35,832 bases of DNA from Escherichia phage vB_EcoM_APEC. Positions 8,281 through 33,146 of this stretch are shown one piece after another. Within the stretch, counting starts at the first letter, position 1. Every line of letters begins with the position of its first letter. The translations under genes were made by a program, and so were the position numbers. The notes beneath the pieces were generated by a model. That model made no database searches and had not been told where the DNA came from. It saw nothing but the letters and a program-made list of their open reading frames with translations. The stretch lies in sequence record MT664721; one strand, written 5' to 3'.

Positions 8281-8673
8281 ATGAAAGACATAGATATTTA
8301 TGACCTCGACCTGTCCGATTCAGATATTGATGAACTGGAACGGCGCAGAGAGTTAAGGATTAAAAAACGCATTAATGAACGACATGCTTTGCAGACTGCT
8401 TTAATGTGCGATGACCTGATTGACGAGTCAATGAAAATGGCAAACAGGGGATTAAAAGCAGTTGACCCTGAATCTAAAAACGAGTTCTTTGGATTGAGCA
8501 ATAAAGTTGCCACGCTTGCAGTAAAGATGCAGCAAATCCACTTGATGAAAGTCGGCTTGCTTCCTCCTGTTTCAGCGACAAAGGACACTCAGGAGAGCTA
8601 CGAGGCCAAAGTCATTAAAGAGTATGAAGAACGAGCACAGCGGCGCAAAGAACAAGTCACAAGAGTATCTTAA
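8281..8673 (+). CDS. putative terminase small subunit, 130 aa
   Basis: GGAGG at 8272-8276; sits immediately upstream of and overlapping the terminase large subunit; no motif recognised, positional call. Confidence 0.4.
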   Translation: MKDIDIYDLDLSDSDIDELERRRELRIKKRINERHALQTALMCDDLIDESMKMANRGLKAVDPESKNEFFGLSNKVATLAVKMQQIHLMKVGLLPPVSATKDTQESYEAKVIKEYEERAQRRKEQVTRVS

Positions 8674-10346
8674 TGAAGATTAGTTTCTCTGCTTTTTTTC
8701 TGATGTATGTTGAAGGTCGATTGGGGCTAGAAGCTCCCGACTTTCATTTAGATGCTTGTGACTTCCTGCAAGATTTTGCAATGGGTGGAGAGAATGACCC
8801 CGATGTGGCTGTACTAATGTTTCCGCGCGGCCACTCTAAATCTACCAATCTTGATATATTCAATGCTTGGCTAATTTATGAAGACCCTGAACATTGGATA
8901 TTACATCAGGGGACGGCAGACCGTGACGCTTACAAGTGTAGTCGCGGTACATTGGCCGTACTTAAAACCCATCCTCTAACTGAAAACAACGAGCTATTCA
9001 AGAAGCGAGAAGGAACTACATCTAAATGGTGGGTAAATGGCTCAACAGATGAGCGTTACGGTACGTTCTTTGCTGCTGGTATCTTATCCGGTGTGACTGG
9101 ACAACGTGCAACATTCATCGAAAATGATGACGTTGAAACACCAAAAACCACAAATAATCAAGAGAAGCGAGAGAAGCTTAAAACCACACTAGGCGAGCAA
9201 ACGCATATTGCTGTGCCGAACACCAAAACTTTATTTATTGGCACACCACACAGTCATGATTCACTGTATACGCACTTAATTGAAAAAGGTGCTAAGACGC
9301 TGATTCTAAAGATGTTTGAGAAGGAATATAGGATTGAAAAAGGACAGACTAAAGCGGTCATCCCTTTTGCACCAGTACATGCTTTTGCTGGAATCGGAAA
9401 AGGTGCTAAGTATCTCTATCCTGATAAAGATTATTCTGTTCATGAGATTGATGGTTTTTACCATATAGAAATCTTTGGCGAGCATAACCTTGTTGATTTC
9501 TACTCAAAAAGTATTTGGGAAAAGCGGTTTACTCCGAAGGAAATGGAGAAGCGCCGTGTTAAGTGCGAAACAATTAATGAGTGGGATTCACAGTATCAGA
9601 TGCACGCCCGACCTGTAGGCAATATGCGTCTTGACCCTGATTACCTGAAGCCATATTTAGAAGAGCCCCGACTTGTCACAGCCAATGGAGAAACACGGCT
9701 GTATATCGGTGAGAATAGAATTGTTTCCGTATCGGCCCACCTAGACCCATCATCAGGCAAGAAGAACCGCGATGTGTCAAGCTTTACCATTCTTTTCCAA
9801 GATGATATAGGTCGCTTATATTGGCATCGTTCTGTTGGTCTAACAGGAAAGATTATTAACGTTGATGAGGAAGGTAATATCTGTACAGGTGGTCAAGCGT
9901 GGACTGTCGCCGATTTGGTCAAAGAGTTTAACCTTCCTGCCGTGACGGTAGAAACAAACGGTATTGGGGGCCACGTTCCTGATAACCTTCTTGCAGTATT
10001 TAAAAAACGCAAGATTCGCTGCGCCGTTCAGGGCATACATGAAAGCAAGAACAAGAACATTCGTATCTTAGGGGCTATAGAAGGACCTTTATTGTCTGGC
10101 TATCTATATGCACATGAAAGCATTCTGAAAGATGAGAACGGCAACGATTCGGATATTGTTAAAAAAATGCGTGTATTTAACCCTGAAACACAAGATAATC
10201 CTGATGATGAGATTGATTCACTTGCGAAGGCAATCAGTAATGAGCCTGTTCGCATGGGCCGTAATCTTGAACATTTTAGCGATACCAGACCAGACTGGCG
10301 CGGTATCCAGACCAACACCAAAGCCAAGTCAGCACACAGATATTAA
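8673..10346 (+). CDS. terminase large subunit (T7 gp19-like DNA maturase B)
   Basis: N-terminal ATPase region LMFPRGHSKST resembles T7 gp19 FRGIGKS Walker A region; 557 aa. Confidence 0.85.
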   Translation: MKISFSAFFLMYVEGRLGLEAPDFHLDACDFLQDFAMGGENDPDVAVLMFPRGHSKSTNLDIFNAWLIYEDPEHWILHQGTADRDAYKCSRGTLAVLKTHPLTENNELFKKREGTTSKWWVNGSTDERYGTFFAAGILSGVTGQRATFIENDDVETPKTTNNQEKREKLKTTLGEQTHIAVPNTKTLFIGTPHSHDSLYTHLIEKGAKTLILKMFEKEYRIEKGQTKAVIPFAPVHAFAGIGKGAKYLYPDKDYSVHEIDGFYHIEIFGEHNLVDFYSKSIWEKRFTPKEMEKRRVKCETINEWDSQYQMHARPVGNMRLDPDYLKPYLEEPRLVTANGETRLYIGENRIVSVSAHLDPSSGKKNRDVSSFTILFQDDIGRLYWHRSVGLTGKIINVDEEGNICTGGQAWTVADLVKEFNLPAVTVETNGIGGHVPDNLLAVFKKRKIRCAVQGIHESKNKNIRILGAIEGPLLSGYLYAHESILKDENGNDSDIVKKMRVFNPETQDNPDDEIDSLAKAISNEPVRMGRNLEHFSDTRPDWRGIQTNTKAKSAHRY

Positions 10347-12792: not shown

Positions 12793-12818
12793 AAAGCCCT
12801 TCGGGGCTTTTCTTTTAC
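12793..12818 (+). terminator. rho-independent terminator after tail fiber gene
   Basis: Hairpin AAAGCCC-TTCG-GGGCTTT followed by TCTTTT. Confidence 0.6.
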
Positions 12819-14087: not shown

Positions 14088-14107
14088 AAGCCCCATTATA
14101 GGGGCTT
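14088..14107 (-). terminator. intrinsic terminator between convergent transcription units (U-tract on minus strand)
   Basis: Hairpin AAGCCCC-ATTATA-GGGGCTT; the T-run follows only in the minus orientation; overlaps the last codons of the minus-strand gene 14096..14293. Confidence 0.55.
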
Positions 14108-14293
14108 GATATACATAGACTGGGTTATTTTGCCCATACATGATCTTGACCATTCTCCAAAACAATAGCCATAGAGAACACCATCAACATATTTGTAATA
14201 TAAGAACCCTCTTTCATTATCTATTCCAGCTCTCTCTGGTCTGTAATGCGTAGCGCCGTTAGGTGCATTTTCCTTTATTTCTTGCTCTGTCAT
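14096..14293 (-). CDS. hypothetical protein, 65 aa (paralog of 20887..21078)
   Basis: Shares MT.EEI...AP.GATHY N-terminus and IKPL C-terminus with the plus-strand 63 aa protein; terminal gene of the minus-strand operon. Confidence 0.5.
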   Translation of the reverse strand: MTEQEIKENAPNGATHYRPERAGIDNERGFLYYKYVDGVLYGYCFGEWSRSCMGKITQSMYIKPL

Positions 14294-14463
14294 TTTACTT
14301 CCTCACTTAACTTCTGTATCCCAAACTCATCATGAAACATCTGATACGATAATACCGCCTTCCATTGCTGACAGCTATCCAGCCATATATACCACTCATT
14401 CTCTGCAACTTTCATCCAATAATCCAGTCCATCCCAATGAGTAGCGCCTAGAGGTTTAGTCAT
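14290..14463 (-). CDS. hypothetical protein, 57 aa
   Basis: ATG (rc of 14461-14463) with GAGGTGA upstream, 2 nt after the stop of the upstream gene; the track's longer version overlaps the neighbour out of frame. Confidence 0.4.
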   Translation of the reverse strand: MTKPLGATHWDGLDYWMKVAENEWYIWLDSCQQWKAVLSYQMFHDEFGIQKLSEEVK

Positions 14464-14839
14464 GCTCACCTCGCAGGGCTTTATGTTCATGATCACCAAA
14501 GTATTCTTTATTTTCGTATCTATTGTTATTGCAGTTAAAACAATGCAATAGACTAAAACCTTCACGGTCACTAACAATTCCCTGCCAAGGTTCACCACAT
14601 GAACAAGTTCCGTGAATCATGGCTGACATAGATTGGCTCTTCCAGGCTTTAAGCTGAGCATTTAAATCATTAATTACTTTCTGCTGCTCTTGGAATGCGT
14701 ACCATGCGCCGTTTATCCAGCAAACAAGCTTTTGAAAGTTGATTAAGTCCGAGTGATACAAATTGTCATCACCAAAATAAATATGCTGGCTAAGACTATT
14801 TGCAATCTCAGGCAACTTCTCAAACTGTTCTCTCATCAC
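14456..14839 (-). CDS. hypothetical Cys-rich protein, 127 aa
   Basis: CSCGEPW...HCFNCN pattern suggests metal binding; tightly coupled in the minus-strand operon. Confidence 0.5.
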   Translation of the reverse strand: MMREQFEKLPEIANSLSQHIYFGDDNLYHSDLINFQKLVCWINGAWYAFQEQQKVINDLNAQLKAWKSQSMSAMIHGTCSCGEPWQGIVSDREGFSLLHCFNCNNNRYENKEYFGDHEHKALRGEHD

Positions 14840-15189
14840 CCTTCCTCCACGTCAAGTATGGCTTGTTTTACTCTTGCGGTGTTTATATACCCTATGCCAC
14901 AGTCCAGCTTGACCAGTAGGTCCGCATGTCCTGCATACTCACAAGCTGCAACATCAGCCTTGGCCTGATCTAAAGATTTGAATAGCCCGAGAATCTCATG
15001 ACTTTCGACAAGTCGCTTTAGGTCGCAAAGACTGACAAATGGGCAATTTTCGGTTGGAGCAATCGCTATAAATGTATATTCCATCATATCGGGCAGATAG
15101 ACATCGGTTTCTGGATAATCACACCAGCAATCAACAATAAGCTTTGCGGTTTTATATCCTTTCTTCTTCACAAACTCAGTCGCTTTCAT
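14836..15189 (-). CDS. hypothetical protein, 117 aa
   Basis: Coupled ORF in the minus-strand operon; no motif recognised. Confidence 0.5.
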   Translation of the reverse strand: MKATEFVKKKGYKTAKLIVDCWCDYPETDVYLPDMMEYTFIAIAPTENCPFVSLCDLKRLVESHEILGLFKSLDQAKADVAACEYAGHADLLVKLDCGIGYINTARVKQAILDVEEG

Positions 15190-15497
15190 CCTGCAATCTC
15201 CAAAAAATTAATAAACTGTTGTTTTAAATGTTTTAATCCACTTGCATTGATTGGCAAAACACCTGTTTCTTCATTGTTTACTGTTGCGTAATCATGCATC
15301 AGCTTAATCTTAATTCCATCAACTTCCACATCATTCCAAGACTGAAACCCATTGCCATCTTTAAAGCGTCTTATGTCACAGTCAACTTGAGCCATGACAT
15401 AAGCTTCGTCCTCACCTTGCTTAAATTCAACTTCAAATAAATCATCTTTCCAATTTGAAATCTTAACTTCAGCTTGTTCTGTAATGTTCATAATCAC
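15186..15497 (-). CDS. hypothetical mildly acidic protein, 103 aa
   Basis: Coupled ORF; net-acidic composition; no motif recognised. Confidence 0.5.
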   Translation of the reverse strand: MIMNITEQAEVKISNWKDDLFEVEFKQGEDEAYVMAQVDCDIRRFKDGNGFQSWNDVEVDGIKIKLMHDYATVNNEETGVLPINASGLKHLKQQFINFLEIAG

Positions 15498-15533
15498 CTC
15501 ACTTATTATGAGGCAATTATATATGCTTTAATA

Positions 15534-15710
15534 TTATTTAGCAACTGGTGAGCAGTAGTAAAACTTGCTTTCATTTGCTTCGTATCTTTCATTTAACTGG
15601 TGCGCCACATATTCGCATTCCTGCTTATCCGAAAAGCGCGAATGGCTCACAAGTTCATTGTAGTAGTCGCCATTAGTTAGAGCGACAAATAAAACGATTA
15701 CATAGCTCAT
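15534..15710 (-). CDS. small protein with N-terminal hydrophobic segment, 58 aa
   Basis: ATG at rc 15708-15710 with AGGTG upstream, just after the exonuclease stop; MSYVIVLFVALT looks like a signal peptide or membrane anchor. Confidence 0.45.
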   Translation of the reverse strand: MSYVIVLFVALTNGDYYNELVSHSRFSDKQECEYVAHQLNERYEANESKFYYCSPVAK

Positions 15711-15718
15711 TTTACACC

Positions 15719-16330
15719 TCAATACATTTCCAAAATTTTGTCTTTAATTGCTTGGGTCTGTTCATTGTAGAGCTTGACCAAGGCTTCTATGTTTTCAATC
15801 TTATCTCTTACATCATTCGCATAAACACGTTTAACAAATAACGGAAGATTCGGGCAGTAGCTTACAAAGTCCATCCATTGAAGTTCTGCACAGGAAATAC
15901 CGCCTATCAGTTGATCTATATGCTCCTTCGGTATTTCACCTGAACGCAAGATAGCAATCTGAGTCTTTGGTGTTTTAACCTTAATCTCTATGCCTCCAAT
16001 AGGGATTTTATCAGGAATGATCAATCCATCTGGTGAATAACCAAATCCCTTATTCTTCACAAAAGAAACCATAGAAACCGTATAGCCTGTCTTTTCCTCA
16101 TACCGCTGACGTGCTTTAGATTCTAGCTGCTGACCTCTTTTAGTCCATTCATTACCCTGAAAAACCTCTGCCGGTTCATGATTAATTAACTCATAAGCCA
16201 GACCATTAATATAGCTCTGAGCGCCTACTCCATTTGCCCGAATGGTTGAAATCTCCGAACAGGTGATTAGACCTAAGCGCAAGTCCAACCACTCAGGAGA
16301 ACCCTGTTCTATTCCGGTGATGATTTGCAT
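15719..16330 (-). CDS. YqaJ-like (lambda-exonuclease-type) recombination exonuclease
   Basis: N-terminal QGSPEWLDLRLGLITCSE resembles the YqaJ family; PD-(D/E)xK-like SPDG...EIK; paired with the ERF gene. Confidence 0.75.
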   Translation of the reverse strand: MQIITGIEQGSPEWLDLRLGLITCSEISTIRANGVGAQSYINGLAYELINHEPAEVFQGNEWTKRGQQLESKARQRYEEKTGYTVSMVSFVKNKGFGYSPDGLIIPDKIPIGGIEIKVKTPKTQIAILRSGEIPKEHIDQLIGGISCAELQWMDFVSYCPNLPLFVKRVYANDVRDKIENIEALVKLYNEQTQAIKDKILEMY

Positions 16331-17028
16331 TATTCACCCTTTTCCAGCTTGGCTAATTTGGTATTTAAAACCCCGACCCAATAATCGAAATCATTTTTAG
16401 GTATCTCGTGCAACTCACAGCCAATATGAGCCTCCATTAATCCTCTTGCTTCTGCACCAAACTGAGATAACTTTTTCTCTATAACAGAAACTTGCTGCGG
16501 TGAAATCGTAATAGCCACCTGCCCATCGTTATCTTCAGCAATAACCAGACCTAGCAATGCTCGCATAGTGTAACGCTGTGCATAACTAATTGCTGAGCCA
16601 TAAGACTGTATATCTGACTTGCTGCCTCCCTTATCCGGCGCAACCTCCATTGAAGACTCTTCGCTGTGCCCACCAACGTGCGAGCAGATGCACGTAACGC
16701 GAGATTTACCATCAGCACATGCTTGGGTAGCCCATCGAATAAACAAGCCATGCTTACGCAATACAGGGTCAATACGGCTTTGTATATACTCAAGCTTTGC
16801 ATACTTAGAGTTATGACCACGACTAGACTTTTCCAAAACTGGTTTTTCCATTTGAAATGCCAGCATTGCCTGATCAAATTGCTGCTTGGCCTGATTGCGC
16901 TGTACACGTTCATGAAGCTCAAGCATCTTTTCAAGTTTCCCCACGTCTGCATCTGGACTGGTTGCAACACGTTCAATAATGCTAATCATCGGGTCAACAT
17001 TATTATTTCTTTCGATTAACTCACTCAT
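16330..17028 (-). CDS. ERF-family single-strand annealing protein
   Basis: SKYAKLEYIQSRIDPVLRKHGL and SYAQRYTMRALLGL resemble conserved ERF regions (P22 Erf type); first gene of the minus-strand operon. Confidence 0.8.
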   Translation of the reverse strand: MSELIERNNNVDPMISIIERVATSPDADVGKLEKMLELHERVQRNQAKQQFDQAMLAFQMEKPVLEKSSRGHNSKYAKLEYIQSRIDPVLRKHGLFIRWATQACADGKSRVTCICSHVGGHSEESSMEVAPDKGGSKSDIQSYGSAISYAQRYTMRALLGLVIAEDNDGQVAITISPQQVSVIEKKLSQFGAEARGLMEAHIGCELHEIPKNDFDYWVGVLNTKLAKLEKGE

Positions 17029-19982: not shown

Positions 19983-20013
19983 AGCCCGGTGCCCTCACAC
20001 TGGGTTCTTTTTT
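19983..20013 (+). terminator. rho-independent terminator
   Basis: Imperfect 9 bp stem (AGCCCGGTG / CACTGGGTT with G-U pairs) followed by CTTTTTTG. Confidence 0.5.
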
Positions 20014-20015
20014 GC

Positions 20016-20043
20016 TTGCAAATAATATTAAAGCAATTATAAT
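20016..20043 (+). promoter_or_regulatory. sigma70-like promoter (TTGCAA, 16 nt, TATAAT)
   Basis: -35 TTGCAA at 20016-20021 and consensus -10 TATAAT at 20038-20043; GAGG at 20064-20067 and ATG at 20073 downstream. Confidence 0.5.
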
Positions 20044-20890: not shown

Positions 20891-21078
20891 CACCTGAAGA
20901 AATCAGAAAGAAAGCGCCAGAGGGAGCGACGCATTATATGAAGTCAATCATATTTTTGGATAGCGTTGACCTAATAACATATTTCAAGTGCGAAAATGGT
21001 AAATTCTTTGAATACTTCGCTCATCATTTCGCTAGGTACGAAACTGGTGTTCACCCAACCTTGATTAAGCCCCTCTAG
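20887..21078 (+). CDS. hypothetical protein, 63 aa (paralog of 14096..14293)
   Basis: Shared N- and C-terminal motifs with the minus-strand 65 aa protein; stop codon lies in the loop of the terminator hairpin. Confidence 0.5.
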   Translation: MTPEEIRKKAPEGATHYMKSIIFLDSVDLITYFKCENGKFFEYFAHHFARYETGVHPTLIKPL

Positions 21079-21090
21079 GGGCTTTTTATT
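21067..21090 (+). terminator. rho-independent terminator
   Basis: Hairpin AAGCCCC-TCTA-GGGGCTT followed by TTTTTATTTG. Confidence 0.65.
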
Positions 21091-21206
21091 TGCCCTTTAT
21101 ATTAGTTTTTCTTATTAATTTTAATTTAATTAATAAAAATTATTTATTTTACTTGTCACAATAAGATTAATAAAATAACCATATTGTTACTACCATCGAG
21201 GATAAG

Positions 21207-24918: not shown

Positions 24919-25162
24919 AAATTTAAAAATCGCAATAATAGACGAGCAGCATTTAACTGCTGTTTGCGAGGTGCTGGAAAGTATGGGGTATCATCCATAC
25001 CAACCAAGTAAAAGACTACAATTTATTTATACTCAGACAGATGGGCTTTATTCATTTGGTGATGATTGTGTTTCTAGTATTTCTTATGAAACTGTAACCC
25101 TTCGCGACCTTCTGCAAATGCGTGATGAAATGGTAAAGGAGAAGATTAATGGACTTAATTGA
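24911..25162 (+). CDS. hypothetical protein, 83 aa
   Basis: Coupled ORF. Confidence 0.5.
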   Translation: MFKNLKIAIIDEQHLTAVCEVLESMGYHPYQPSKRLQFIYTQTDGLYSFGDDCVSSISYETVTLRDLLQMRDEMVKEKINGLN

Positions 25163-25550
25163 AAAGCTGTGTGGGTATGAGAACTCGAAGCGATTATTTC
25201 ATGTATACGATCACGCACTAATGTTTAGATATTATCCAAACTATTCTGAGAACTCAGATAATTTCGTTAATGTTTTTGTGCTTGATTTAAAAACAGCCCT
25301 TCTCGAATACCGCCGAGCAAATAATATTTTTGAGGTTGGGGATAAGGTTGTAGAGATAACAGATTATCCTAGCAATGATGTACTAACAGTTAAATCTATA
25401 TCGGATAATCTATTAGTGTGTGAAAGTGATGATCTTAGCGCAAGTTATATTTTGTCTAATAAATATAAGCCTTATTCTTATGTTAGTCACGCTACCGATG
25501 CAGAAATCGAAGCAGACCATCGCCTACCAGAGAAGGATAAAGATGTTTAG
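25149..25550 (+). CDS. hypothetical protein, 133 aa
   Basis: Coupled ORF. Confidence 0.5.
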   Translation: MDLIEKLCGYENSKRLFHVYDHALMFRYYPNYSENSDNFVNVFVLDLKTALLEYRRANNIFEVGDKVVEITDYPSNDVLTVKSISDNLLVCESDDLSASYILSNKYKPYSYVSHATDAEIEADHRLPEKDKDV

Positions 25551-25752
25551 CTATGAGGGTTTATTCGCTGCATCTTTGATAATTTCAATATTTATTATGC
25601 TGTTTATGTTGTTTTATCTAAGTGAACTGAACAGGGCTAAAAAATATATAAAACCCTGTTCTGTTTTAGTCTTTGTCTATGCGGTAATTACGGTTTTTAT
25701 CGTTCTGCCGATTTTTCTTTACGATGTAATTATTTGGTTTTTAAGTGTGTGA
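25543..25752 (+). CDS. small membrane protein, 69 aa, two predicted TM helices
   Basis: ATG at 25543 with AAGGA upstream; two long hydrophobic stretches. Confidence 0.45.
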   Translation: MFSYEGLFAASLIISIFIMLFMLFYLSELNRAKKYIKPCSVLVFVYAVITVFIVLPIFLYDVIIWFLSV

Positions 25753-25760
25753 GGTGAACC

Positions 25761-26726
25761 ATGATTAGTATGAATAGCAGTTTAATTAACCATGCATTGA
25801 GTGATCAGTTAGCCAGAGAAGTTGAGGAATTTCTGGCGCGTGGTGGAAAAGTAAAGTCTGAAGGTATTCAGCGCCGTGATATTGAGGAATTAACGCCGGA
25901 CTTTAAGCGCGACTTTGTAATATCAGGAAGAAAACCTGAAATGGTCAAGGCTGAGAAAAAGGAAGAAAAAGAACCTAAACCAAAGAAAGAGAAGGTTAAG
26001 GTGATTATACCAAAGCCAGAACCTAAACCGAAACGCGAACCTAAGCCCAAGAAGCAGGTAGTCAAAGTAGTTAAGGCCAAACCATTGCCGAAACCAAAGC
26101 CAGAACCTAAACCAAAGAAAGAGAAAAAAGAAAAGGTATTTACTAAAGAGACCTTAAGGGTTAGAGCTAACCAGAAATCGCGTGAAGATGCTTTGAAAAA
26201 GGGTATGGATACTTTTGAAGGTGAGTGTAAAAAGCATGGCATGACTGTATTTAAGATTCACAGTGATGCATTTAGATGCCGTGAATGTGCAGAGCTTGAC
26301 AAGCAGCGCAGAACTGAAGCCAAGAGAGCTAAACGTGATCAGCGAGAAGTTAGAAATGAGGATAGAAAGAAAGCGGCTATTGCAAATGGTTATACTAAAT
26401 TTGATGCTGAATGCCTGCATCATGGCTTAACCGAGCATCATCTTACGAGGAATAGCCGTAATCACACAATTATGGTGTGCACCTTATGCAAGAAAGAAAC
26501 TAACAAGCGAACTGTAGAGAGAAGGAAGAAAGTCCAGTACAGGGATTATGAGCGTAACGCTTTTATTAGAAATCAACTGGCCAATAGAAGAATAAGCTGT
26601 GTTGCGCTGGCAGATGCGATTAATGCTAGTCCATCAACCATGAATAAGATTAAACGTGGTGAACAGCTTTGCAGCGATAGACTATGGCAAGCCATTAATC
26701 AGTTCTTTGAAAAACTTGATAAATAA
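25761..26726 (+). CDS. DNA-binding protein with Lys/Pro-rich repeats, duplicated Cys-containing motif and C-terminal helix-turn-helix, 321 aa
   Basis: GAGGTGA RBS; EPKPK repeat tract (about residues 67-122); two copies of a (F/K)(E/D)..EC..HG.T....CxxC motif; C-terminal RRISCVALADAINASPSTMNKIKRGEQ resembles an HTH. Confidence 0.55.
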   Translation: MISMNSSLINHALSDQLAREVEEFLARGGKVKSEGIQRRDIEELTPDFKRDFVISGRKPEMVKAEKKEEKEPKPKKEKVKVIIPKPEPKPKREPKPKKQVVKVVKAKPLPKPKPEPKPKKEKKEKVFTKETLRVRANQKSREDALKKGMDTFEGECKKHGMTVFKIHSDAFRCRECAELDKQRRTEAKRAKRDQREVRNEDRKKAAIANGYTKFDAECLHHGLTEHHLTRNSRNHTIMVCTLCKKETNKRTVERRKKVQYRDYERNAFIRNQLANRRISCVALADAINASPSTMNKIKRGEQLCSDRLWQAINQFFEKLDK

Positions 26727-26785
26727 GTATTGTAAAGCATATCTATGAATGGTATGCTTTATTACATTAAAGTGAGGGAAATGAA

Positions 26786-27058
26786 ATGGACACTGGCATT
26801 TTAGATGCAATTCACAAGTTGACTGATTTGTGTATTGAAAAAAGCTTAGAGAGTAATATTTGCTTTAAGGTTGAGGTTACCCGAATCGCTGACGGTATGC
26901 ACGTTATGGTAATAAGAAACGATAAAGTTGTGTCATGGGTGAATGGTTCAACAGGGTTTAGATTCTATGATTTTGAACGGAAGGAGTGGAACATCAATGC
27001 CGAGAATCATATTTACTGGTGCATGTCTGAAGTAAGGAGAATTTCAAATGAGAGATAA
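26786..27058 (+). CDS. hypothetical protein, 90 aa
   Basis: GAGGGAA RBS; follows a weak hairpin. Confidence 0.45.
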   Translation: MDTGILDAIHKLTDLCIEKSLESNICFKVEVTRIADGMHVMVIRNDKVVSWVNGSTGFRFYDFERKEWNINAENHIYWCMSEVRRISNER

Positions 27059-27147
27059 AGAAAGCTGCCCTTTATGGTTTGGTTCGATTCTTTTTATGGT
27101 GGTCTTTGTTCTGTTTTTATTATTGGCTTATAAGGTGGCAGGTTGAT

Positions 27148-27780
27148 ATGGAAGATTTTAAAATTTTTGTAAAAGATGAAGCGGCAAGCAAGGAAGCCCA
27201 GGAGTTGTTTTTTGGGGTTGGTTTTAGGGGTGGTAAATATAAAGGTTATGATGGGAATAAGCAAAAAACAGAATATAGGTTGTGGGCAAATATGCTTAAG
27301 AGGTGTTACTCGAGATCATCTCAATTAGCTAGACCATCCTATATTGGTTGTGAGGTCTCTGATAACTTTAAAGAATACGATTACTTTTACGAGTGGTGTC
27401 AAAATCAAACCGGATTCAATGAAAAAGGATTTCAACTTGATAAGGACCTATTAAAAAAAGGGAATAGGATTTACTCTGAGGATTTATGCTTGTTTTTGCC
27501 AAGTGAAATCAATACCGCACTAATACTCAGAAAATCAAAAAGAGGTAAATATCCAATAGGTGTTACTTACTCAGAAAGAGATAGATTATTTGCATCAACA
27601 TTAACTATGTATGGGAAAAACACTCATGTTGGATATTTTAAAGATGAGATGTCGGCATTTTTGAAATACAAGGAGGTTAAAGAGGCCTATCTAAAAGAAC
27701 TCGCCAATCTATACAAGGAACAAATTAACCCTCTTGCGTATCTTGCTTTGTTGAACTACGAGGTATCCATTAATGACTAA
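27148..27780 (+). CDS. hypothetical protein with HNH-like motif, 210 aa
   Basis: ATG at 27148 with AAGGTGG upstream (the track's longer version begins in a hydrophobic out-of-context stretch); YRLWANMLKRC motif similar to the 18844 gene product. Confidence 0.45.
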   Translation: MEDFKIFVKDEAASKEAQELFFGVGFRGGKYKGYDGNKQKTEYRLWANMLKRCYSRSSQLARPSYIGCEVSDNFKEYDYFYEWCQNQTGFNEKGFQLDKDLLKKGNRIYSEDLCLFLPSEINTALILRKSKRGKYPIGVTYSERDRLFASTLTMYGKNTHVGYFKDEMSAFLKYKEVKEAYLKELANLYKEQINPLAYLALLNYEVSIND

Positions 27781-28354
27781 TCTATCAGAAATCGACATAG
27801 TTGTTTTGAAGAGGAATGAAACGATGAAAATGAAAGAATATCTAAACGAGAAATATGAACTGATTAATGCGCCTGAGTCAGAAGCTAAAGAACCACATGC
27901 TAAGGGGTGGATTGAAGTACCAGAGGGGGCAGAGATATTAACTGTTGGTATTGATCAGCGTGTATTCTGGAAAGGTGATTTGAGCTGGAATATTGATGGT
28001 TACGAAACTAAAGAGTGGAGATCAACTGATAGTTTCCCGATTTACATGAAGAATTACGAGAAAACGGTTAAGGTATTATGGCAACGCAACGCACCTACCC
28101 TGACAGAAGAACTGCCGTTTATTGATGATGAGCCACATGGACACTACAAGAAAGATGTTAGCAATTTAAATAGCATTGATGTTTATCGTGTATTAAAACT
28201 TTTTGATGTTAAAGACCCTGCATTGCAACACGCAGTAAAGAAAATATTATGTGCTGGTGATCGTGGCACAAAAGATAAGGTTCAGGATATTCAAGAGGCT
28301 ATCGCTTCACTTAATCGCTCCCTAGAGATGATTAAAGAGGATGGCTGTATGTGA
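27773..28354 (+). CDS. hypothetical protein, 193 aa
   Basis: Coupled ORF (ATGA overlap). Confidence 0.5.
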   Translation: MTNLSEIDIVVLKRNETMKMKEYLNEKYELINAPESEAKEPHAKGWIEVPEGAEILTVGIDQRVFWKGDLSWNIDGYETKEWRSTDSFPIYMKNYEKTVKVLWQRNAPTLTEELPFIDDEPHGHYKKDVSNLNSIDVYRVLKLFDVKDPALQHAVKKILCAGDRGTKDKVQDIQEAIASLNRSLEMIKEDGCM

Positions 28355-28361
28355 GGTGAAC

Positions 28362-28718
28362 ATGATTAAACCTAAATGGGGTGGTTATAAAATCCCTGCA
28401 TTAAAAGAGAAGTGTAATTGTATGAGACGAGCAGCAAAGATAGACGAGAATCAACCAGAGATTGTAGATGCATTGCGAGCTATGGGGTGTAGTGTGACAA
28501 ACCTTTCAGCGGTTGGAAATGGATGTCCTGATATTTTGGTTGGTTTTCGTGGAATCAATCTGCTATTTGAAATTAAAGACGGTAAGAAGCCGAAGTCTAA
28601 GCGCCAATTAACATCAGATCAAGTGAAGTGGCATACCGCATGGAATGGTAAGGTTTATATCGTGGAAAGTGTTGAACAGGCTATTACTATTATTAATGAC
28701 CCGAATACTTATATATAA
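28362..28718 (+). CDS. VRR-NUC-like (PD-(D/E)xK) nuclease domain protein
   Basis: GCPDILVGF...LLFEIKDGK...QVKWH resembles the VRR-NUC motif arrangement; ATG at 28362 with GAGGTG upstream. Confidence 0.5.
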   Translation: MIKPKWGGYKIPALKEKCNCMRRAAKIDENQPEIVDALRAMGCSVTNLSAVGNGCPDILVGFRGINLLFEIKDGKKPKSKRQLTSDQVKWHTAWNGKVYIVESVEQAITIINDPNTYI

Positions 28719-28792
28719 ATATTTTTCATTAGTAATTTGCTGATTGTGTTAGTATATTTGTTTTAAGAATTAATCCTCACGGGTTAAGACTA

Positions 28793-28843
28793 AACCATCT
28801 TCCTTATCTATCCTCTACCAAAATTTGAGTAAGGAAGGTGGTT
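28793..28843. other. 14 bp inverted repeat (one mismatch) with 23 nt loop in a non-coding region
   Basis: AACCATCTTCCTTA (28793-28806) pairs with TAAGGAAGGTGGTT (28830-28843). Confidence 0.4.
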
Positions 28844-29013
28844 ACCTTAAAAGTAAGACTGGTGTGTAAGTGCCTTTGTTTATGGCGTTGCAATCGAAAC
28901 TTTACTCCAAGAAGCCCCTGTTGACGCAGGACAAGCAAAGAGTAAATTGCAAACATCATACCCTGCATTTCGGGGAAATAATAAACATGACTGAAGCGAA
29001 AGACCTTCATAGA

Positions 29014-29037
29014 AAGCCCCTTAATTGGGGTTTTTTA
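29014..29037 (+). terminator. rho-independent terminator inside the non-coding region
   Basis: GCCCC-TTAATT-GGGGT stem followed by TTTTTT. Confidence 0.55.
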
Positions 29038-29090
29038 TTGCCTGTTCATAAGTATTGGTTATGGGTTAATATATCTTATATAAATAATTT

Positions 29091-29099
29091 TGATATAAT
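29091..29099 (+). promoter_or_regulatory. extended -10 promoter (TGaTATAAT) upstream of the structural module
   Basis: TG at 29091-29092, one base, then TATAAT at 29094-29099; AT-rich upstream; GGAG at 29141-29144 and ATG at 29153 downstream. Confidence 0.45.
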
Positions 29100-29152
29100 C
29101 GCGCGCGTGAGATAATGTTATTATCAGGTTTGTTTATATAGGAGTGTCGAAA

Positions 29153-29383
29153 ATGACCGAGAAGAAAGAAACCACAGAAAACGTTCAGGAAAAGGCAACT
29201 GAAGCAACAGTATCTCAAAAGGAATTTGACAAGGTGAAGGCTGAGAATGCCGAGCTTCGTAAAAAGAACGTGGCCTTGCACAATGAGAACCAACGCCTGA
29301 AAGACAGTGTTGCACCTCAGAAGCCTAAAGGTGATTTCGTTTTTGACGAGAAGAAGGGCTATACATTCAAGGAGCGTAAGTAA
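29153..29383 (+). CDS. hypothetical charged/coiled-coil protein, 76 aa
   Basis: ATG at 29153 with GGAG RBS; first gene of the structural operon. Confidence 0.5.
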   Translation: MTEKKETTENVQEKATEATVSQKEFDKVKAENAELRKKNVALHNENQRLKDSVAPQKPKGDFVFDEKKGYTFKERK

Positions 29384-29574
29384 TGAGCGTACGTCCTAAA
29401 GTTGTTCAACAAAAGTCCGCTGAACAGATTGAGAAAGAGGCGAAGGACTTGGCCACGCTTGAAGCGAATAAGGAAGCTGCACAGCGGCGTGGTGGTCGTT
29501 CGACTGCACTCAGTCCAATTGGTCAGGGCACAATGAATGGTCTTAAAACTTTACTAGGTGGTGGCGGACAATGA
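29383..29574 (+). CDS. hypothetical protein, 63 aa
   Basis: Coupled ORF immediately upstream of the portal gene. Confidence 0.45.
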   Translation: MSVRPKVVQQKSAEQIEKEAKDLATLEANKEAAQRRGGRSTALSPIGQGTMNGLKTLLGGGGQ

Positions 29575-31187
29575 GCGAACTGGCAACGAGTAAGATTAAA
29601 ATGTTGGGCAATCTGAAAGTTGCCCGCTCCAAACATGAGCCAAAATGGATTGACTGTTATAAATATGGTGCTCCTGAGCGTGAGCCTGATTTTACTGATG
29701 TAAGTAGTGATGATCAGAAAAGTCGTGTGAATCTTTATGACGGTACTGCTGCTGATAGTGTCCAGTTGCTTGCGAGTTCTATTATATCAGGAACCGTGCC
29801 TCCTAACGTTCGTTGGTTTAAGGCTGTACCTAGTGGTCTTGAAGATGATGAAATGACAGAGGCAGATCAGTGGCTTGATGATGTATGCGAAATGATGTGG
29901 CGCAAGATTCATGCTGGCAATTTCAACGTAGAAGCGTATGACTGCATCCAAGACTATGTTGTGGGTGGCTGGGGTGTTCTGTATATCACACAGGAAGGTG
30001 ACGGTTATCGCTTTGAGAACTGGCCGTTAGGTAATTGCTGGTTTTCAACAACTAAGCAAGGTGGTCTGGTTGACATTATCTATCATGTTGTTTCCATGTC
30101 TGCAAAACAGATGGTAGAAGAATATGGTGAGAATGAGGTTCATGAGTCAGTTAGACGCGCTGCGAAGGATGATGTAGAGCGAAACTACACTGTTCTTCAT
30201 GTAATTGAACCGCGCAAAGATGGCAGTGAGAATGCAGACTTACCAGAGAAAATGCCGTTTGCTTCATACCATATTGATATTGATAACAAGCATCTGCTTA
30301 AAGAGGGTGGTTATCGTAGTTTTCCTTGCGCTGTGCCACGTGCTCACAAGATTGCCAATTCAGTCTATGCGGTTGGGCAGATGTTTAAGGCTTTACCAGA
30401 TGCCAAGTCGTTAAATGAAATGCAACGCATGTTGTTAAACAGCATGGATGTAAATGTAAATGGCTTTTGGGCTGCTGCTGATGACGGTGTAATCAATCCT
30501 GCAACGTTCCGTATTGGACCAATGGAAATGGTCATGGTTCGCAGCATGGAGCAACGTCCACAGAACCTGATGCCAAATACAAACGTAAACTTGGCTGACT
30601 GGATGGTCTCTGGTAAACAGCAAGCAATCCGCAAGGTGTTAATGTCTGATCAGCTACAGGCGCAGGATGGGCCACAAATGACAGCAACCGAGGTTTATGT
30701 TCGTGTAGACCTGATTCGTCAGTTGTTAGGCCCAATGTTCGGACGTTTGCAAGATGAATTCATGATGCAGATATTAGACCGATGCTTCTCTATTGGTTAC
30801 TCTGCTGGATGGTTTGGTGAAGCGCCAGAAGAATTGCTTGGTGAAGAACTGAAGTTTAGATTCGAGAATCCATTTGCACGTTCACAGCGTTTAGAGGAAG
30901 TTACAGCGATTGAGCGCTTGATGGGTAGTGTTGGATTAATGGCTGAAGCATTCCCTGAAGTTCTGGATAACATCAATGCAGATGCAGCATATAACGTTTT
31001 ACAGGCTGGTTATGGAGTTCCTGCATCAGTAAGCAGAACAGCAGATCAGGTGATTAAATTACGTGAGCAGCAGCAGCAGCAGAAACAGCAAATGGAACAA
31101 CAGCAAAGACAGCAAGGCGCTGAGGATGCAATGGCAGGAGCAGCTTTAGACGTAATGACACAGCAAGGGGCTAACAATGATTTATAA
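29571..31187 (+). CDS. portal (head-tail connector) protein
   Basis: 538 aa, close to T7 gp8 size; Gln-rich C-terminus; upstream of scaffold and capsid genes. Confidence 0.75.
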   Translation: MSELATSKIKMLGNLKVARSKHEPKWIDCYKYGAPEREPDFTDVSSDDQKSRVNLYDGTAADSVQLLASSIISGTVPPNVRWFKAVPSGLEDDEMTEADQWLDDVCEMMWRKIHAGNFNVEAYDCIQDYVVGGWGVLYITQEGDGYRFENWPLGNCWFSTTKQGGLVDIIYHVVSMSAKQMVEEYGENEVHESVRRAAKDDVERNYTVLHVIEPRKDGSENADLPEKMPFASYHIDIDNKHLLKEGGYRSFPCAVPRAHKIANSVYAVGQMFKALPDAKSLNEMQRMLLNSMDVNVNGFWAAADDGVINPATFRIGPMEMVMVRSMEQRPQNLMPNTNVNLADWMVSGKQQAIRKVLMSDQLQAQDGPQMTATEVYVRVDLIRQLLGPMFGRLQDEFMMQILDRCFSIGYSAGWFGEAPEELLGEELKFRFENPFARSQRLEEVTAIERLMGSVGLMAEAFPEVLDNINADAAYNVLQAGYGVPASVSRTADQVIKLREQQQQQKQQMEQQQRQQGAEDAMAGAALDVMTQQGANNDL

Positions 31188-33085: not shown

Positions 33086-33120
33086 TTGCTAACAAGCCTG
33101 AATAAAATACATTAAACTAA

Positions 33121-33146
33121 GGGTATCTTGAAGATGCCCTTTTTTA
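33121..33146 (+). terminator. rho-independent terminator after the capsid gene
   Basis: GGGTATC-TTGAA-GATGCCC (one G-U pair) followed by TTTTTT. Confidence 0.6.

What the first reader, a model, noticed from the sequence alone, without database searches (positions are those of the whole stretch)
28719..29152. 435 bp non-coding island between early and structural modules with a hairpin, an internal terminator and an extended -10 promoter
This is the longest gap in an otherwise tightly packed genome. It holds a 14 bp-stem inverted repeat (28793-28843), a GC-stem/T-run terminator (29014-29037) that nothing coding precedes, a TGnTATAAT promoter (29091-29099) and an alternating GCGCGCG tract (29101-29107). 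It could encode a small RNA ending at the terminator, act as the early/late regulatory switch, or lie near the physical genome termini or packaging signal.
Basis: partly seen in the sequence, partly recalled or inferred. Interest (0 to 1): 0.6.

Follow-up and report, generated by a model that had tools for sequence, protein, structure and literature searches.

The report
Phage early/late junction with RNA cassette
The longest gap in this small phage genome is an ordinary stop-and-restart point for transcription between early and late genes, and it also holds an optional, conserved piece of non-coding DNA that probably makes a small RNA.

Summary
The window matches Escherichia phage vB_EcoM_APEC, a T7-like podovirus without its own RNA polymerase. 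I compared the gap in 16 related contigs.

The gap has two layers. The first is ordinary punctuation. An intrinsic terminator (29009-29039) and an extended -10 promoter with its 5'UTR (29066-29152) occur in all 16 contigs. The same terminator-then-promoter layout sits in the other rightward-strand gaps of this genome.

The second layer is an optional 271-nt non-coding cassette (28733-29003), which one relative lacks cleanly. The 14-bp hairpin lies inside it and occurs in both orientations among relatives. After the hairpin comes a 146-nt block under purifying selection. Its linkers vary in 7/93 columns and its stems in 9/58, against 206/538 for third codon positions. Its hairpin loops vary in 22/33.

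The cassette ends in a UGACUG-stem-GAAAGA-stem hairpin. The same motif closes non-coding units in other Acinetobacter phages.

Best reading: a small non-coding RNA unit of about 275 nt that uses the early-operon terminator. No transcript data exist. Nothing points to genome ends or a packaging site here.

The parts
28341..28718 (+). Last early gene, a Hjc/VRR-NUC-like endonuclease or Holliday-junction resolvase
   Evidence: Pfam Hjc hit below its cut-off and PHROG 93 'endonuclease'. About 69% nucleotide identity to Obolenskvirus 'endonuclease' genes.
28712..28726 (+). Left copy of the 15-nt direct repeat TATATAAATAWTTTT, overlapping the stop codon
   Evidence: The only exact matches in the window are this copy and 29077-29091. 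With up to 2 mismatches 0.47 matches are expected.
28733..29003 (+). Optional non-coding cassette, absent from relative L020
   Evidence: In L020, CATTAG joins directly to ACCCTCATAGAAAG. The gap measures 163-856 nt across the 15 of 16 contigs in which it could be measured.
28750..28758 (+). Candidate extended -10 box of the cassette. It reads TAGTATATT in the window and TGGTATATT in 11 relatives.
   Evidence: The homologous TGGTATTAT box precedes X units in Obolenskvirus.
28793..28843 (+). 14-bp-stem hairpin with a 23-nt loop, found in both orientations among relatives
   Evidence: z = -4.1. Orientation A in 7 contigs, B in 4, absent in 5.
28858..29003 (+). Conserved non-coding block. It contains hairpins H1 (28899-28912), H2 (28917-28930), H3 (28961-28975) and H5 (28993-29008), joined by invariant linkers.
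   Evidence: Present in 15/16 contigs. Variable columns: linkers 7/93, stems 9/58, loops 22/33, against 206/538 at third codon positions. Two compensatory pairs in H1.
28988..29009 (+). 3' motif TGACTG-GAAG-c-GAAAGA-c-CTTC-A, a hairpin with a GAAAGA loop
   Evidence: The same motif, with compensatory stem changes, closes the X units in relatives and in Obolenskvirus. It occurs once in the window, with 0.08 expected.
29009..29039 (+). Intrinsic terminator (core GCCCC-TTAATT-GGGGT at 29016-29031, followed by a T-run)
   Evidence: -15.9 kcal/mol, z = -3.7. Present in 16/16 contigs. The loop varies (TTAATT, ATTTAA, TTAAGT) and the base before the stem is G, A or T.
29077..29091 (+). Right copy of the 15-nt direct repeat, an AT-rich stretch directly upstream of the -10 element
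29091..29099 (+). Extended -10 promoter TGATATAAT of the late (structural) operon
   Evidence: The 30-nt core TTTTGATATAATCGCGCGCGTGAGATAATG is identical in 16/16 contigs. The wider region 29066-29152 has 6/87 variable columns.
29100..29107 (+). CGCGCGCG, a GC-rich discriminator between the -10 element and the expected start site
   Evidence: Invariant in all relatives. Other promoters of this genome have AT-rich discriminators.
29108..29116 (+). Second -10-like element TGAGATAAT, either a tandem promoter or a sigma-dependent pause element
   Evidence: Read from the sequence. Invariant in relatives. Its function is inferred.
29117..29152 (+). Weakly structured 5'UTR with Shine-Dalgarno AGGAG (29140-29144)
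   Evidence: The fold of 29100-29160 is weaker than shuffles, z = +1.6. 1/36 variable columns.
29153..29383 (+). First late gene (76 aa). A 63-aa gene follows, then the portal gene at 29571-31187.

Best explanation
The gap is the junction between the rightward early (replication and recombination) genes and the late structural operon. It has two layers.

Backbone layer. An intrinsic terminator (29009-29039) ends rightward transcription. About 55 nt further on, an extended -10 sigma-70 promoter (TGATATAAT, 29091-29099) restarts it. The promoter has no -35 element, an AT-rich upstream stretch and a CGCGCGCG discriminator. The new transcript carries a weakly structured 5'UTR and a Shine-Dalgarno site for the first late gene.

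Accessory layer. A 271-nt cassette (28733-29003) lies between the last early gene and the terminator. I read it as a small non-coding RNA unit. The RNA would run on the + strand from about 28765, or as a read-through 3'UTR of the early transcript, to the terminator, giving about 275 nt. It contains the 14-bp hairpin, four short hairpins separated by invariant single-stranded linkers, and a UGACUG-stem-GAAAGA-stem hairpin next to the terminator.

What is shown: the anatomy, presence or absence among relatives, purifying selection on linkers and stems, hypervariable loops, and the shared 3' motif.

What is inferred: that the cassette is transcribed, where its 5' end lies, and that it acts as RNA. 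Its target or role is unknown. The invariant linker 28976-28992 and the variable loops are the candidate interaction surfaces.
For: Layout: the gap is 434 nt and the longest in the genome.

Folding: the terminator and the hairpin both fold far better than shuffles, and the terminator does so only on the + strand.

Ordinary punctuation: terminator-then-promoter pairs also occur at 19983-20043 and 21067-21176, and terminators at 12793-12810 and 33119-33141.

Conservation: in 16 related contigs the terminator and a 30-nt promoter core are always present. Region 29066-29152 has 6/87 variable columns, against 206/538 at portal third codon positions.

Optional cassette: L020 lacks exactly 28733-29003 and keeps the terminator and promoter.

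Selection on the block: variable columns are 7/93 in linkers (p = 4e-10 against synonymous sites), 9/58 in stems and 22/33 in loops. There are two compensatory pairs in H1. G.U pairs in H2, H3 and the terminator fit a + strand RNA.

Not coding: non-triplet indels in relatives break the two long ORFs in the gap, the short one ends at a different stop codon in most relatives, and none has a family hit.

Candidate promoter: the upstream box reads TGGTATATT in 11 relatives, and the homologous TGGTATTAT box precedes X units in Obolenskvirus.

Shared 3' motif: the GAAAGA-loop hairpin recurs with compensatory stem changes in relatives and in Obolenskvirus.

Sister units: X units occupy the same gap in relatives and show strong covariation. 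11 of 25 pairs changed on both sides, and the score is 0.288 against 0.137 in shuffles, 0/500. In phage BS46 the X unit has a consensus-like TTGACA-17-AATAAT promoter.
Against: There is no transcript evidence of any kind.

In the window the upstream box has lost its TG (TAGTATATT), so an independent promoter may be weak or dead here.

The whole 196-nt fold is not better than shuffles (z = -1.3). Covariation within the window's own block is limited to one 4-bp stem. I placed that stem after seeing where the variation lay.

The relatives are close (about 93-97% nucleotide identity), so invariant pairs say nothing about structure.

The window's block has no detectable homologue outside this phage cluster and no Rfam match.

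L020 shows the cassette is dispensable.

Conserved blocks could instead be protein-binding DNA.
Confidence: 0.55

Rival explanations
1. Leader or attenuator. The cassette plus the terminator form a cis-acting leader, comparable to lambda pR'-6S RNA-tR'. Passage of early or leader transcripts into the late operon would depend on whether the terminator forms. H3 (CCCUG/CGGGG) and the terminator (GCCCC/GGGGU) have interchangeable arms. Pairing of the H3 3' arm (28971-28975) with the terminator 5' arm (29017-20) would prevent termination.
For: The CCCC/GGGG arms of H3 and of the terminator are both conserved while their loops vary. A short ORF (28987-) runs through the terminator in every relative. 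There is a -10-like element, TGAGATAAT, just downstream of the late promoter. Distant relatives (Piluca, TPWB-05, MD-2021a) have a terminator-like hairpin abutting the first late gene with no obvious promoter after it.
Against: An invariant, near-consensus extended -10 promoter sits between the terminator and the late genes, so read-through is not needed. L020 does without the whole leader. No Q-like or other antiterminator family was found in the neighbouring genes. The short ORF's peptide and its length are not conserved. The arm swap rests on invariant bases, so it cannot be tested by covariation.
Confidence: 0.15
2. DNA-level element. The conserved blocks and the inverted repeat are protein-binding sites, for example for a phage regulator, a replication or recombination protein, or a packaging protein. 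They would not be RNA.
For: Invariant 30-45-nt blocks. The hairpin is symmetric and tolerated in both orientations, as a dimer-binding site would be. TTGCAA palindromes lie at 28888-28893 and 28948-28953. The neighbouring genes are DNA enzymes.
Against: G.U pairs that would be A.C mismatches on the other strand favour RNA. Conserved stems with hypervariable loops are typical of RNA hairpins. The unit lies between a promoter-like box and a terminator. An O-like replication initiator and DnaB lie 5-7 kb away, and the terminase 20 kb away. The motifs do not recur elsewhere in the genome. L020 lacks the element.
Confidence: 0.12
3. Recombination debris. The cassette is a functionless mosaic left by illegitimate or Erf-mediated recombination at a hot spot, and only the terminator and promoter matter.
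For: The gap length ranges from 163 to 856 nt, with cassettes shuffled among relatives. A 15-nt direct repeat flanks the unit. The L020 junction shows only 2-nt microhomology. The phage encodes ERF and a YqaJ exonuclease. The cassette is dispensable in L020.
Against: Linkers and stems are far less variable than synonymous sites in the same genomes (7/93 and 9/58 against 206/538). Neutral debris would not show this.
Confidence: 0.1
4. Small protein gene. The gap encodes a short peptide, for example the 42-aa product of 28987-29115 or the 81-aa product of 28870-29115.
For: The ORFs exist. The ATG at 28987 lies 11 nt after GGGG. Its first codons (MTEAK) resemble the start of the first late gene and of a small Obolenskvirus gene.
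Against: Indels of -1 and +2 in relatives shift the 81-aa and 68-aa frames. The 42-aa ORF stops at 25 codons in most relatives, and its residues change freely where the terminator loop changes. The first eight codons are invariant even at synonymous positions, which points to a constraint on the nucleotides. The string is part of the UGACUG-GAAAGA hairpin motif. No family hits.
Confidence: 0.03

Closest known systems
Operon punctuation by an intrinsic terminator followed by a sigma-70 extended -10 promoter, the general bacterial and phage class
   Same: A GC stem with a U-tract ends the upstream unit. TGnTATAAT without a -35 element starts the next unit. The pair sits between functional modules and recurs several times in this genome.
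   Different: The terminator lies about 290 nt beyond the last stop codon because a cassette is inserted. The promoter carries an unusual invariant CGCGCGCG discriminator and a second -10-like element.
Phage morons: promoter-gene-terminator units inserted between conserved genes of lambdoid phages (established knowledge, not read here)
   Same: A self-contained unit present or absent among close relatives, sitting between two conserved genes, with promoter-like and terminator elements.
   Different: It has no ORF, so the cargo appears to be non-coding RNA. It shares the backbone's terminator rather than bringing its own strong one.
Lambda late control region (pR'-qut-6S RNA-tR') with Q antitermination
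   Same: It lies directly upstream of the late genes. A short non-coding transcript would end at an intrinsic terminator. A -10-like element follows a promoter.
   Different: The order is reversed: the terminator lies upstream of the strong promoter. No Q-like gene was found, and the 5'UTR between promoter and first gene has no terminator.
Antisense RNA regulators with specificity loops, such as P1/P7 c4 RNA, ColE1 RNA I and R1 CopA (established knowledge)
   Same: Conserved stems and hypervariable loops in close relatives. This is the pattern expected when the loops set specificity.
   Different: No complementary, co-varying target was found in the DNA held. There is no Rfam C4 or other match.
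'X' non-coding units of Acinetobacter phages
   Same: They occupy the same slot in relatives. They share the extended -10 box (TGGTAT...) and the 3' UGACUG-stem-GAAAGA-stem-CA hairpin.
   Different: The window lacks the X core, which consists of a closing stem TTATTGATYG/CRATCAATAA, a GGCGA-loop hairpin and a UAUUCGCAC-loop hairpin. The body of the window's unit is unrelated in sequence.
Small hairpin-loop inversions, as described for chloroplast non-coding DNA (established knowledge)
   Same: A short inverted repeat whose loop is found flipped in related genomes. Flipped and unflipped forms sit in otherwise near-identical flanks.
   Different: It is seen here in a phage. The arm mismatch flips together with the loop. 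The terminator loop shows the same kind of change: ATTTAA is the reverse complement of TTAATT plus one substitution.

Membership tests
Intrinsic (Rho-independent) terminator | GC-rich stem-loop immediately followed by a U-tract on the transcribed strand | tested here: met
   GCCCC-TTAATT-GGGGT followed by TTTTTATT. The fold is -15.9 kcal/mol, z = -3.7, and strand-specific.
Intrinsic (Rho-independent) terminator | Stem kept in relatives while the loop is free to vary | tested here: met
   CCCC/GGGG is present in 16/16 contigs. There are three loop variants. The G.U pair at the stem base becomes A-U in three contigs.
Intrinsic (Rho-independent) terminator | Transcripts actually end there | not testable with these tools
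   Needs Term-seq, 3' RACE or in-vitro transcription.
Sigma-70 extended -10 promoter | TGn directly upstream of a TATAAT-like hexamer | tested here: met
   TGATATAAT at 29091-29099, the only + strand and only intergenic site of four in the window.
Sigma-70 extended -10 promoter | -35 hexamer at 16-18 nt (not required for this class) | tested here: not met
   The scanner finds no -35/-10 pair here. ATATCT at 29071-29076 matches TTGACA at 2/6 positions.
Sigma-70 extended -10 promoter | Conserved, correctly oriented and placed upstream of a gene with an SD site | tested here: met
   The 30-nt core is identical in 16/16 contigs. Region 29066-29152 has 6/87 variable columns. AGGAG lies 8 nt before the ATG.
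Sigma-70 extended -10 promoter | Mapped transcription start | not testable with these tools
   Needs 5' RACE or dRNA-seq.
Lambda-type Q / pR'-tR' late antitermination region | Terminator between the late promoter and the late genes | tested here: not met
   The terminator lies upstream of the promoter. The 5'UTR fold (29100-29160) is weaker than shuffles, z = +1.6.
Lambda-type Q / pR'-tR' late antitermination region | Q-family antiterminator gene just upstream | tested here: not met
   Pfam and PHROGs scans of the genes in 25149-28718 give HNH-like, unknown and Hjc-like hits only. Remote homologues could be missed.
Lambda-type Q / pR'-tR' late antitermination region | -10-like pause element in the initially transcribed region | tested here: inconclusive
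   TGAGATAAT at 29108-29116 fits by sequence. Pausing has not been tested.
Any Rfam 15 family | Covariance-model score at or above the gathering threshold | tested here: not met
   No hits in the window. The best sub-threshold hit is PK-repBA at 20.9 bits against a threshold of 45.
Small non-coding RNA gene (promoter, structured body, intrinsic terminator) | Own promoter | tested here: inconclusive
   TGGTATATT in 11 relatives, but TAGTATATT in the window. Read-through from the early operon is an alternative source of the RNA.
Small non-coding RNA gene (promoter, structured body, intrinsic terminator) | Non-coding sequence under purifying selection | tested here: met
   Variable columns: linkers 7/93 and stems 9/58, against 206/538 at third codon positions. 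Non-triplet indels break the two long ORFs, and the short one ends at a different stop in most relatives.
Small non-coding RNA gene (promoter, structured body, intrinsic terminator) | Covariation supporting a fold | tested here: inconclusive
   Only 2 of 53 pairs changed on both sides, both in a 4-bp stem that I placed after seeing the variation. The fold z-score is -1.3.
Small non-coding RNA gene (promoter, structured body, intrinsic terminator) | Detected transcript | not testable with these tools
   No expression data are available.
Acinetobacter-phage 'X-type' non-coding units (defined here) | 3' hairpin UGACWG-stem-GAAAGA-stem-CA | tested here: met
   28988-29009. The stems co-vary: GAAG/CTTC, CTAG/CTAG, GCCT/AGGC. 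The motif occurs once in the window.
Acinetobacter-phage 'X-type' non-coding units (defined here) | X core: closing stem TTATTGATYG/CRATCAATAA plus the GGCGA-loop and UAUUCGCAC-loop hairpins | tested here: not met
   The core motifs are absent from the window. They are present in six relatives and in 90 phage records.
Invertible DNA switch (inverton) | Inverted repeats flanking a segment found in both orientations | tested here: met
   Orientation A in 7 contigs and B in 4. The arm mismatch flips with the loop.
Invertible DNA switch (inverton) | Site-specific invertase encoded nearby | tested here: not met
   No resolvase or integrase family was found in the 40 proteins scanned. Not every small ORF was scanned.
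Invertible DNA switch (inverton) | Invertible segment large enough to carry a promoter or coding end | tested here: not met
   The loop is 23 nt.
Genome terminus or packaging site | Next to the terminase genes, or terminal repeats or contig ends clustering there | tested here: not met
   The T7-type terminase gene is at 8673-10346. Long related contigs break at unrelated positions. Virion ends cannot be mapped here.

The most novel reading that the evidence does not exclude
The gap is a landing pad for a family of self-contained, exchangeable non-coding RNA units in Acinetobacter-type phages. Each unit would have an extended -10 promoter, a structured body with a hypervariable segment, and a GAAAGA-loop hairpin. 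The units move between unrelated phages: this podovirus cluster, Obolenskvirus myophages, Friunavirus and the roughly 95-kb BS46 and AM24 types. On this reading the hypervariable loops or middle segments are specificity determinants (antisense, decoy or guide) in phage-phage or phage-host conflict. The window's cassette would be one divergent member.
Probability: 0.2. Interest if true: 0.75.

Novelty: new member of a known kind. Interest (0 to 1): 0.42.

Why it matters
The terminator and promoter pair is routine, and on its own it only refines the annotation of a published therapeutic-candidate phage.

The cassette has more value. It is a non-coding element under clear purifying selection and dispensable in one relative, with conserved stems and fast-changing loops. 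It shares end motifs with non-coding units that are spread across at least four unrelated groups of Acinetobacter phages and carry no annotation.

If these units are transcribed, they form an undescribed class of phage small RNAs exchanged horizontally like morons. They would also give a concrete entry point for asking what phage non-coding 'dark matter' does.

The flipped hairpin shows that short inverted repeats in phage genomes invert in nature. This matters for alignment-based phylogeny and for interpreting hairpins.

Tried and rejected
- **Rfam:** gathering and permissive searches of the window and of related loci gave nothing credible. ARAGORN found no tRNA or tmRNA in the window.

- **The -35/-10 promoter at 28921-28948 from the scanner:** its TTGACG lies in the variable loop of H2 (TTTCAG, TTGCCG, TTGCAG, TTAACG in relatives). 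I rejected it as a conserved promoter.

- **Coding potential:** indels break the two long ORFs in the gap, the short one is not conserved, and none has a family hit.

- **Origin by tandem duplication of the late promoter, 5'UTR and gene start:** there are three colinear short matches (the 15-mer repeat, TTTGTTTAT, and ATGACTGAAGCGAAAGA against ATGACCGAGAAGAAAGA). A gapped local alignment is not better than shuffles, with 16/200 scoring as well. I left this as a weak idea.

- **Co-varying targets for the variable loops:** only chance-level 8-10-mers turned up in the DNA held.

- **Homologues of the window's cassette:** none in the phage, plasmid or E. coli genome collections or by profile search in Obolenskvirus loci.

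- **More relatives:** the genome-contig scans found none.

- **MITE with a TAAGACT target duplication around the hairpin:** relatives with other right flanks lack the second copy, so I dropped it.

- **CRISPR-repeat mimic:** I dropped it. This rests on memory, not on a test.

- **Literature:** the phage's genome paper (PMC8229158) does not mention promoters, terminators or this region.
Full report
**1. What the window is**

The proteins flanking the gap are exact matches to Escherichia phage vB_EcoM_APEC (QMP81501/2, a 35,832-bp record). That record is not in the local phage collection.

The genome has a T7-like structural module. It comprises a portal (PF12236), a capsid, tail tube A, a nozzle, a T7-type large terminase and a T7 tail-fibre N-terminus. 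I saw no phage RNA polymerase. A leftward ERF/YqaJ recombination module lies at 14096-17028. The rightward early genes include a dCMP deaminase, an O-like initiator and DnaB.

Portal relatives form one tight cluster at about 99% identity and then drop to 49% or less. The distant ones are mostly Acinetobacter prophages and phages.

**2. Checking the observation**

All five listed features are present at the stated coordinates.

- The gap is 434 nt (28719-29152) and the longest in my gene map. The next longest is 184 nt.
- The inverted repeat has 14-nt arms at 28793-28806 and 28830-28843 with a 23-nt loop. It folds at -20.2 kcal/mol, z = -4.1, 0/200 shuffles.
- The terminator is GCCCC-TTAATT-GGGGT followed by a T-run. 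It folds at -15.9 kcal/mol on the + strand (z = -3.7, 0/200) and only -7.7 on the - strand.
- TGATATAAT at 29091-29099 is one of four TGNTATAAT sites in the window. It is the only one on the + strand and the only intergenic one.
- CGCGCGCG follows it directly. GCGCGCG occurs at only one other place in the window.
- No tRNA and no Rfam family was found.

**3. Relatives**

Exact-protein look-ups and pattern scans gave 15 further contigs from metagenomes and SRA assemblies that carry this junction. I compared 16 contigs in all, of which about 13 are distinct across this region.

The gap could be measured in 15 of them and ranges from 163 to 856 nt. So this site is a hot spot for insertion and deletion.

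**4. The backbone layer**

The terminator stem and T-run, and the 30-nt promoter core TTTTGATATAATCGCGCGCGTGAGATAATG, are present in all 16 contigs.

Region 29066-29152 has 6/87 variable columns, and the 5'UTR has 1/36. Third codon positions of the adjacent portal gene have 206/538.

The terminator loop changes (TTAATT, ATTTAA, TTAAGT) while CCCC/GGGG is kept. The G.U pair at the base of the stem becomes A-U in three contigs. ATTTAA is the reverse complement of TTAATT plus one substitution, whereas direct change would need five substitutions. A loop inversion is therefore the simpler explanation.

Contig L020 has almost nothing but this layer. It runs: stop codon, about 30 nt, terminator, promoter. 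This explains the 'terminator that nothing coding precedes'. It is the terminator of the early unit, and in the window a cassette lies between it and the last gene.

The same terminator-then-promoter layout occurs at 19983-20043 and 21067-21176. Further terminators follow the tail-fibre and capsid genes. The pair is therefore this genome's routine punctuation.

Two things are particular to this promoter. It has an invariant GC-only discriminator, where the other promoters have AT-rich ones. It also has a second -10-like element, TGAGATAAT, 9 nt downstream. From established knowledge of rrn-type promoters and of sigma-dependent pausing, these could make the promoter sensitive to supercoiling or ppGpp, or cause promoter-proximal pausing. 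That is inference only.

**5. The accessory layer**

L020 lacks exactly 28733-29003, with only a 2-nt microhomology at the junction. The 15-mer TATATAAATAWTTTT occurs exactly twice in the window, at 28712-28726 and 29077-29091, bracketing the cassette plus terminator.

*5a. Candidate promoter box.* At 28750-58 the box reads TGGTATATT in 11 relatives, TGGTATTCT in one, and TAGTATATT in the window and two others.

*5b. The hairpin.* It is present in 11 contigs, in orientation A in 7 and in orientation B in 4. In B the loop is reverse-complemented. In L024 the single arm mismatch has also changed arms, so the whole hairpin is flipped.

B-type hairpins sit in three different flank contexts, each shared with an A-type genome. 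For example, the window and L023 are identical at 138/140 positions in the left flank, and L022 and L023 share the same right flank. Either inversion recurred, or one inverted allele spread by recombination. The arms are 14 nt, which I expect is shorter than the k-mers these assemblers use, so an assembly artefact is unlikely.

No invertase was found among the 40 proteins scanned, and the loop is too short to carry a switchable promoter. I read this as a hairpin-loop inversion. Template switching or annealing between the arms could produce it, and the phage's ERF/YqaJ system may help. It does not look like a regulated switch.

*5c. The conserved block (28858-29003).* It is present in 15/16 contigs. 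It cannot be coding. Indels of -1 and +2 shift the two long frames, the short ORF is not conserved, and there are no family hits.

Even so, variable columns are only 7/93 in linkers and 9/58 in stems, against 206/538 at third codon positions (p = 4e-10 and 5e-4). In hairpin loops they are 22/33, above the synonymous rate (p = 0.0016).

Stems H2 (CCUGU/GCAGG), H3 (CCCUG/CGGGG) and H5 (GAAG/CUUC) came from single-sequence or consensus folding. I placed H1 by eye, and it carries the only two compensatory pairs, UA to CG and UA to AU. G.U pairs favour the + strand.

The global fold is not significant (z = -1.3), and the relatives are too close for real covariation statistics.

*5d. The 3' end.* TGACTG-GAAG-c-GAAAGA-c-CTTC-A (28988-29009) is the same motif that ends other non-coding units in this gap in relatives and in Obolenskvirus. 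Those read TGACTG-CTAG-GAAAGA-CTAG-CA and TGACAG-CCT-GAAAGA-AGG-CA, so the stems change in a compensatory way. The motif occurs once in the window, with 0.08 expected.

**6. Sister units in the same slot**

Six relatives carry another unit, which I call X, directly after the same TGGTATATT box. X is not in the window.

X-like DNA occurs in 90 Acinetobacter phage records, nearly always unannotated. These include Obolenskvirus (inside non-coding regions of 0.8-1 kb), Friunavirus and the 94-97-kb BS46 and AM24 types. The Friunavirus P2 copy is 106 nt long and 100% identical to that of Abp95.

Its closing stem co-varies across these groups:

- TTATTGATTG/CAATCAATAA
- TTATTGATCG/CGATCAATAA
- TAGATTGATCG/CGATCAATCTA
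- ACTTTAAGATATGATCG/CGATCATATCTTAAAGT

On an alignment of the conserved ends, 11 of 25 pairs changed on both sides. The covariation score is 0.288 against 0.137 in shuffles (0/500) and at most 0.12 in slid controls.

In BS46 the unit follows TTGACA-17-AATAAT. X has no Rfam match and is not a tRNA.

X is therefore very probably a transcribed, structured RNA. This makes it more plausible that the window's cassette is also an RNA unit, because it occupies the same slot, follows the same box and ends in the same 3' motif.

**7. Mechanism proposed**

*Shown:* a strand-specific terminator and an invariant extended -10 promoter separate the early and late modules. An optional, selectively constrained, non-coding cassette lies just upstream of the terminator.

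*Inferred:*
- Rightward transcription ends at 29031-29039. It would come from the early operon and, in most relatives, also from the TGGTATATT box.
- The product carries, or is processed to, an RNA of about 180-280 nt containing the hairpin, H1-H3, the invariant linker 28976-28992, the GAAAGA hairpin and the terminator hairpin.
- Late transcription starts afresh near 29106.

The role of the RNA is unknown. The conserved-stem and variable-loop pattern is what specificity-determining antisense RNAs show. I found no co-varying target.

**8. Rivals**

- *Attenuator reading (0.15).* H3 and the terminator have exchangeable arms, and a short ORF runs through the terminator. It is weakened by the invariant promoter downstream of the terminator and by L020.
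- *DNA-binding-site reading (0.12).* It fits the symmetry and the invariant blocks, but not the G.U pairs or the loop pattern.
- *Debris (0.10).* Purifying selection contradicts it.
- *Coding (0.03).* Frame-breaking indels contradict it.
- *Genome termini or packaging.* There is no support. The terminase lies 20 kb away, contig breakpoints are scattered, and 271 nt are dispensable.

**9. Verdict**

The terminator and promoter pair is ordinary.

The cassette is a credible new phage non-coding RNA unit belonging to a loose, unannotated family of such units in Acinetobacter-type phages. It still needs transcript evidence.

Interest is moderate. The most interesting thread, the X family and the exchange of non-coding units, lies mostly outside the window.

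Noticed in passing
L021 1830-1935, L022 1616-1762, L032 1761-1910, L035 1863-1973; L028 1522-1614, L029 1520-1632, L042 ~885-1016, L043 ~810-930: 'X' is a structured element of 85-150 nt with a co-varying closing stem, two conserved hairpins and a hypervariable middle. It occurs in 90 Acinetobacter phage records from at least four unrelated phage groups and is almost always unannotated. It has no Rfam match. One copy is 100% identical between an Obolenskvirus and a Friunavirus.
   Followed up: partly
window 27079-28354, and the equivalent slot in L016-L040: The one or two genes just upstream of the resolvase gene differ completely among otherwise near-identical relatives. The products range from 171 to 400 aa, some have weak DUF6378 hits, and the window's is like the C-terminal part of an HNH endonuclease. 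This makes a second hypervariable slot next to the gap.
   Followed up: partly
whole window: The record is named vB_EcoM (E. coli, myovirus). Its gene content is that of a T7-like podovirus, GC is about 41%, and every detectable relative is an Acinetobacter phage or prophage. None of 5,426 complete E. coli genomes matches the gap region.
   Followed up: partly
window 25761-26726: The 321-aa early protein has an N-terminal match to the SutA RNA-polymerase-binding domain, just below the Pfam cut-off (28.2 against 29.3 bits). It also has a weak PHROG 'replication initiation' match. It may be an RNAP-binding regulator, which would be relevant to a promoter with a GC-rich discriminator.
   Followed up: no
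L001 3366-3445, L002 3350-3415, L003 3338-3414: Distant relatives (Piluca, TPWB-05, MD-2021a) share a near-identical leader of about 65 nt (ATCACCCAACAAACCC...). It ends in a terminator-like hairpin, GCCC..GGGGC followed by TTTTT, that abuts the start codon of the first late gene. No sigma-70 promoter follows it. This is a different design for the same junction.
   Followed up: no
window 19983-20043, 21067-21176, 12793-12810, 14088-14107, 33119-33141: Further intrinsic terminators of the same AAGCCCC...GGGGCTTTT type. Two of them are followed within about 10-65 nt by good -35/-10 promoters, which divide the rightward strand into several units.
   Followed up: partly
L028 1863-1935: A tRNA-like gene (Rfam tRNA, 45 bits; ARAGORN reports an odd anticodon) lies in the large non-coding region of Obolenskvirus IME-Ap7, just after its X unit. 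These 'empty' regions appear to be clusters of RNA genes.
   Followed up: no
window 29153-29169; L016-L036 at the start of the 76-aa gene: The start of the first late gene reads ATGACAGAGAAGAAAGA in most relatives and ATGACCGAG... in the window. It matches the same TGACWG-N-GAAAGA string as the 3' hairpin motif of the non-coding units. I have no explanation for this.
   Followed up: no
window, 8 sites including 28714-28721 and 29079-29086: TATAAATA, which I recall as the T4 late-promoter core, occurs 8 times against 1.9 expected (0/100 shuffles). Two copies lie in the direct repeats that flank the gap's unit. I did not look for a gp55-like sigma factor.
   Followed up: no
L017 ~1900-1980, L032 ~1680-1760, L044 ~800-880: Another shared non-coding module (ATATCATGTAGCATTGG...CCTTAGTTGGTTGTAAT...CGGATGTGTGAAG) precedes X in some relatives and in Obolenskvirus fThrA. 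A 13-nt stretch of it (AAGTGCCTTAGTT) resembles the start of the window's conserved block (AAGTGCCTTTGTT).
   Followed up: no
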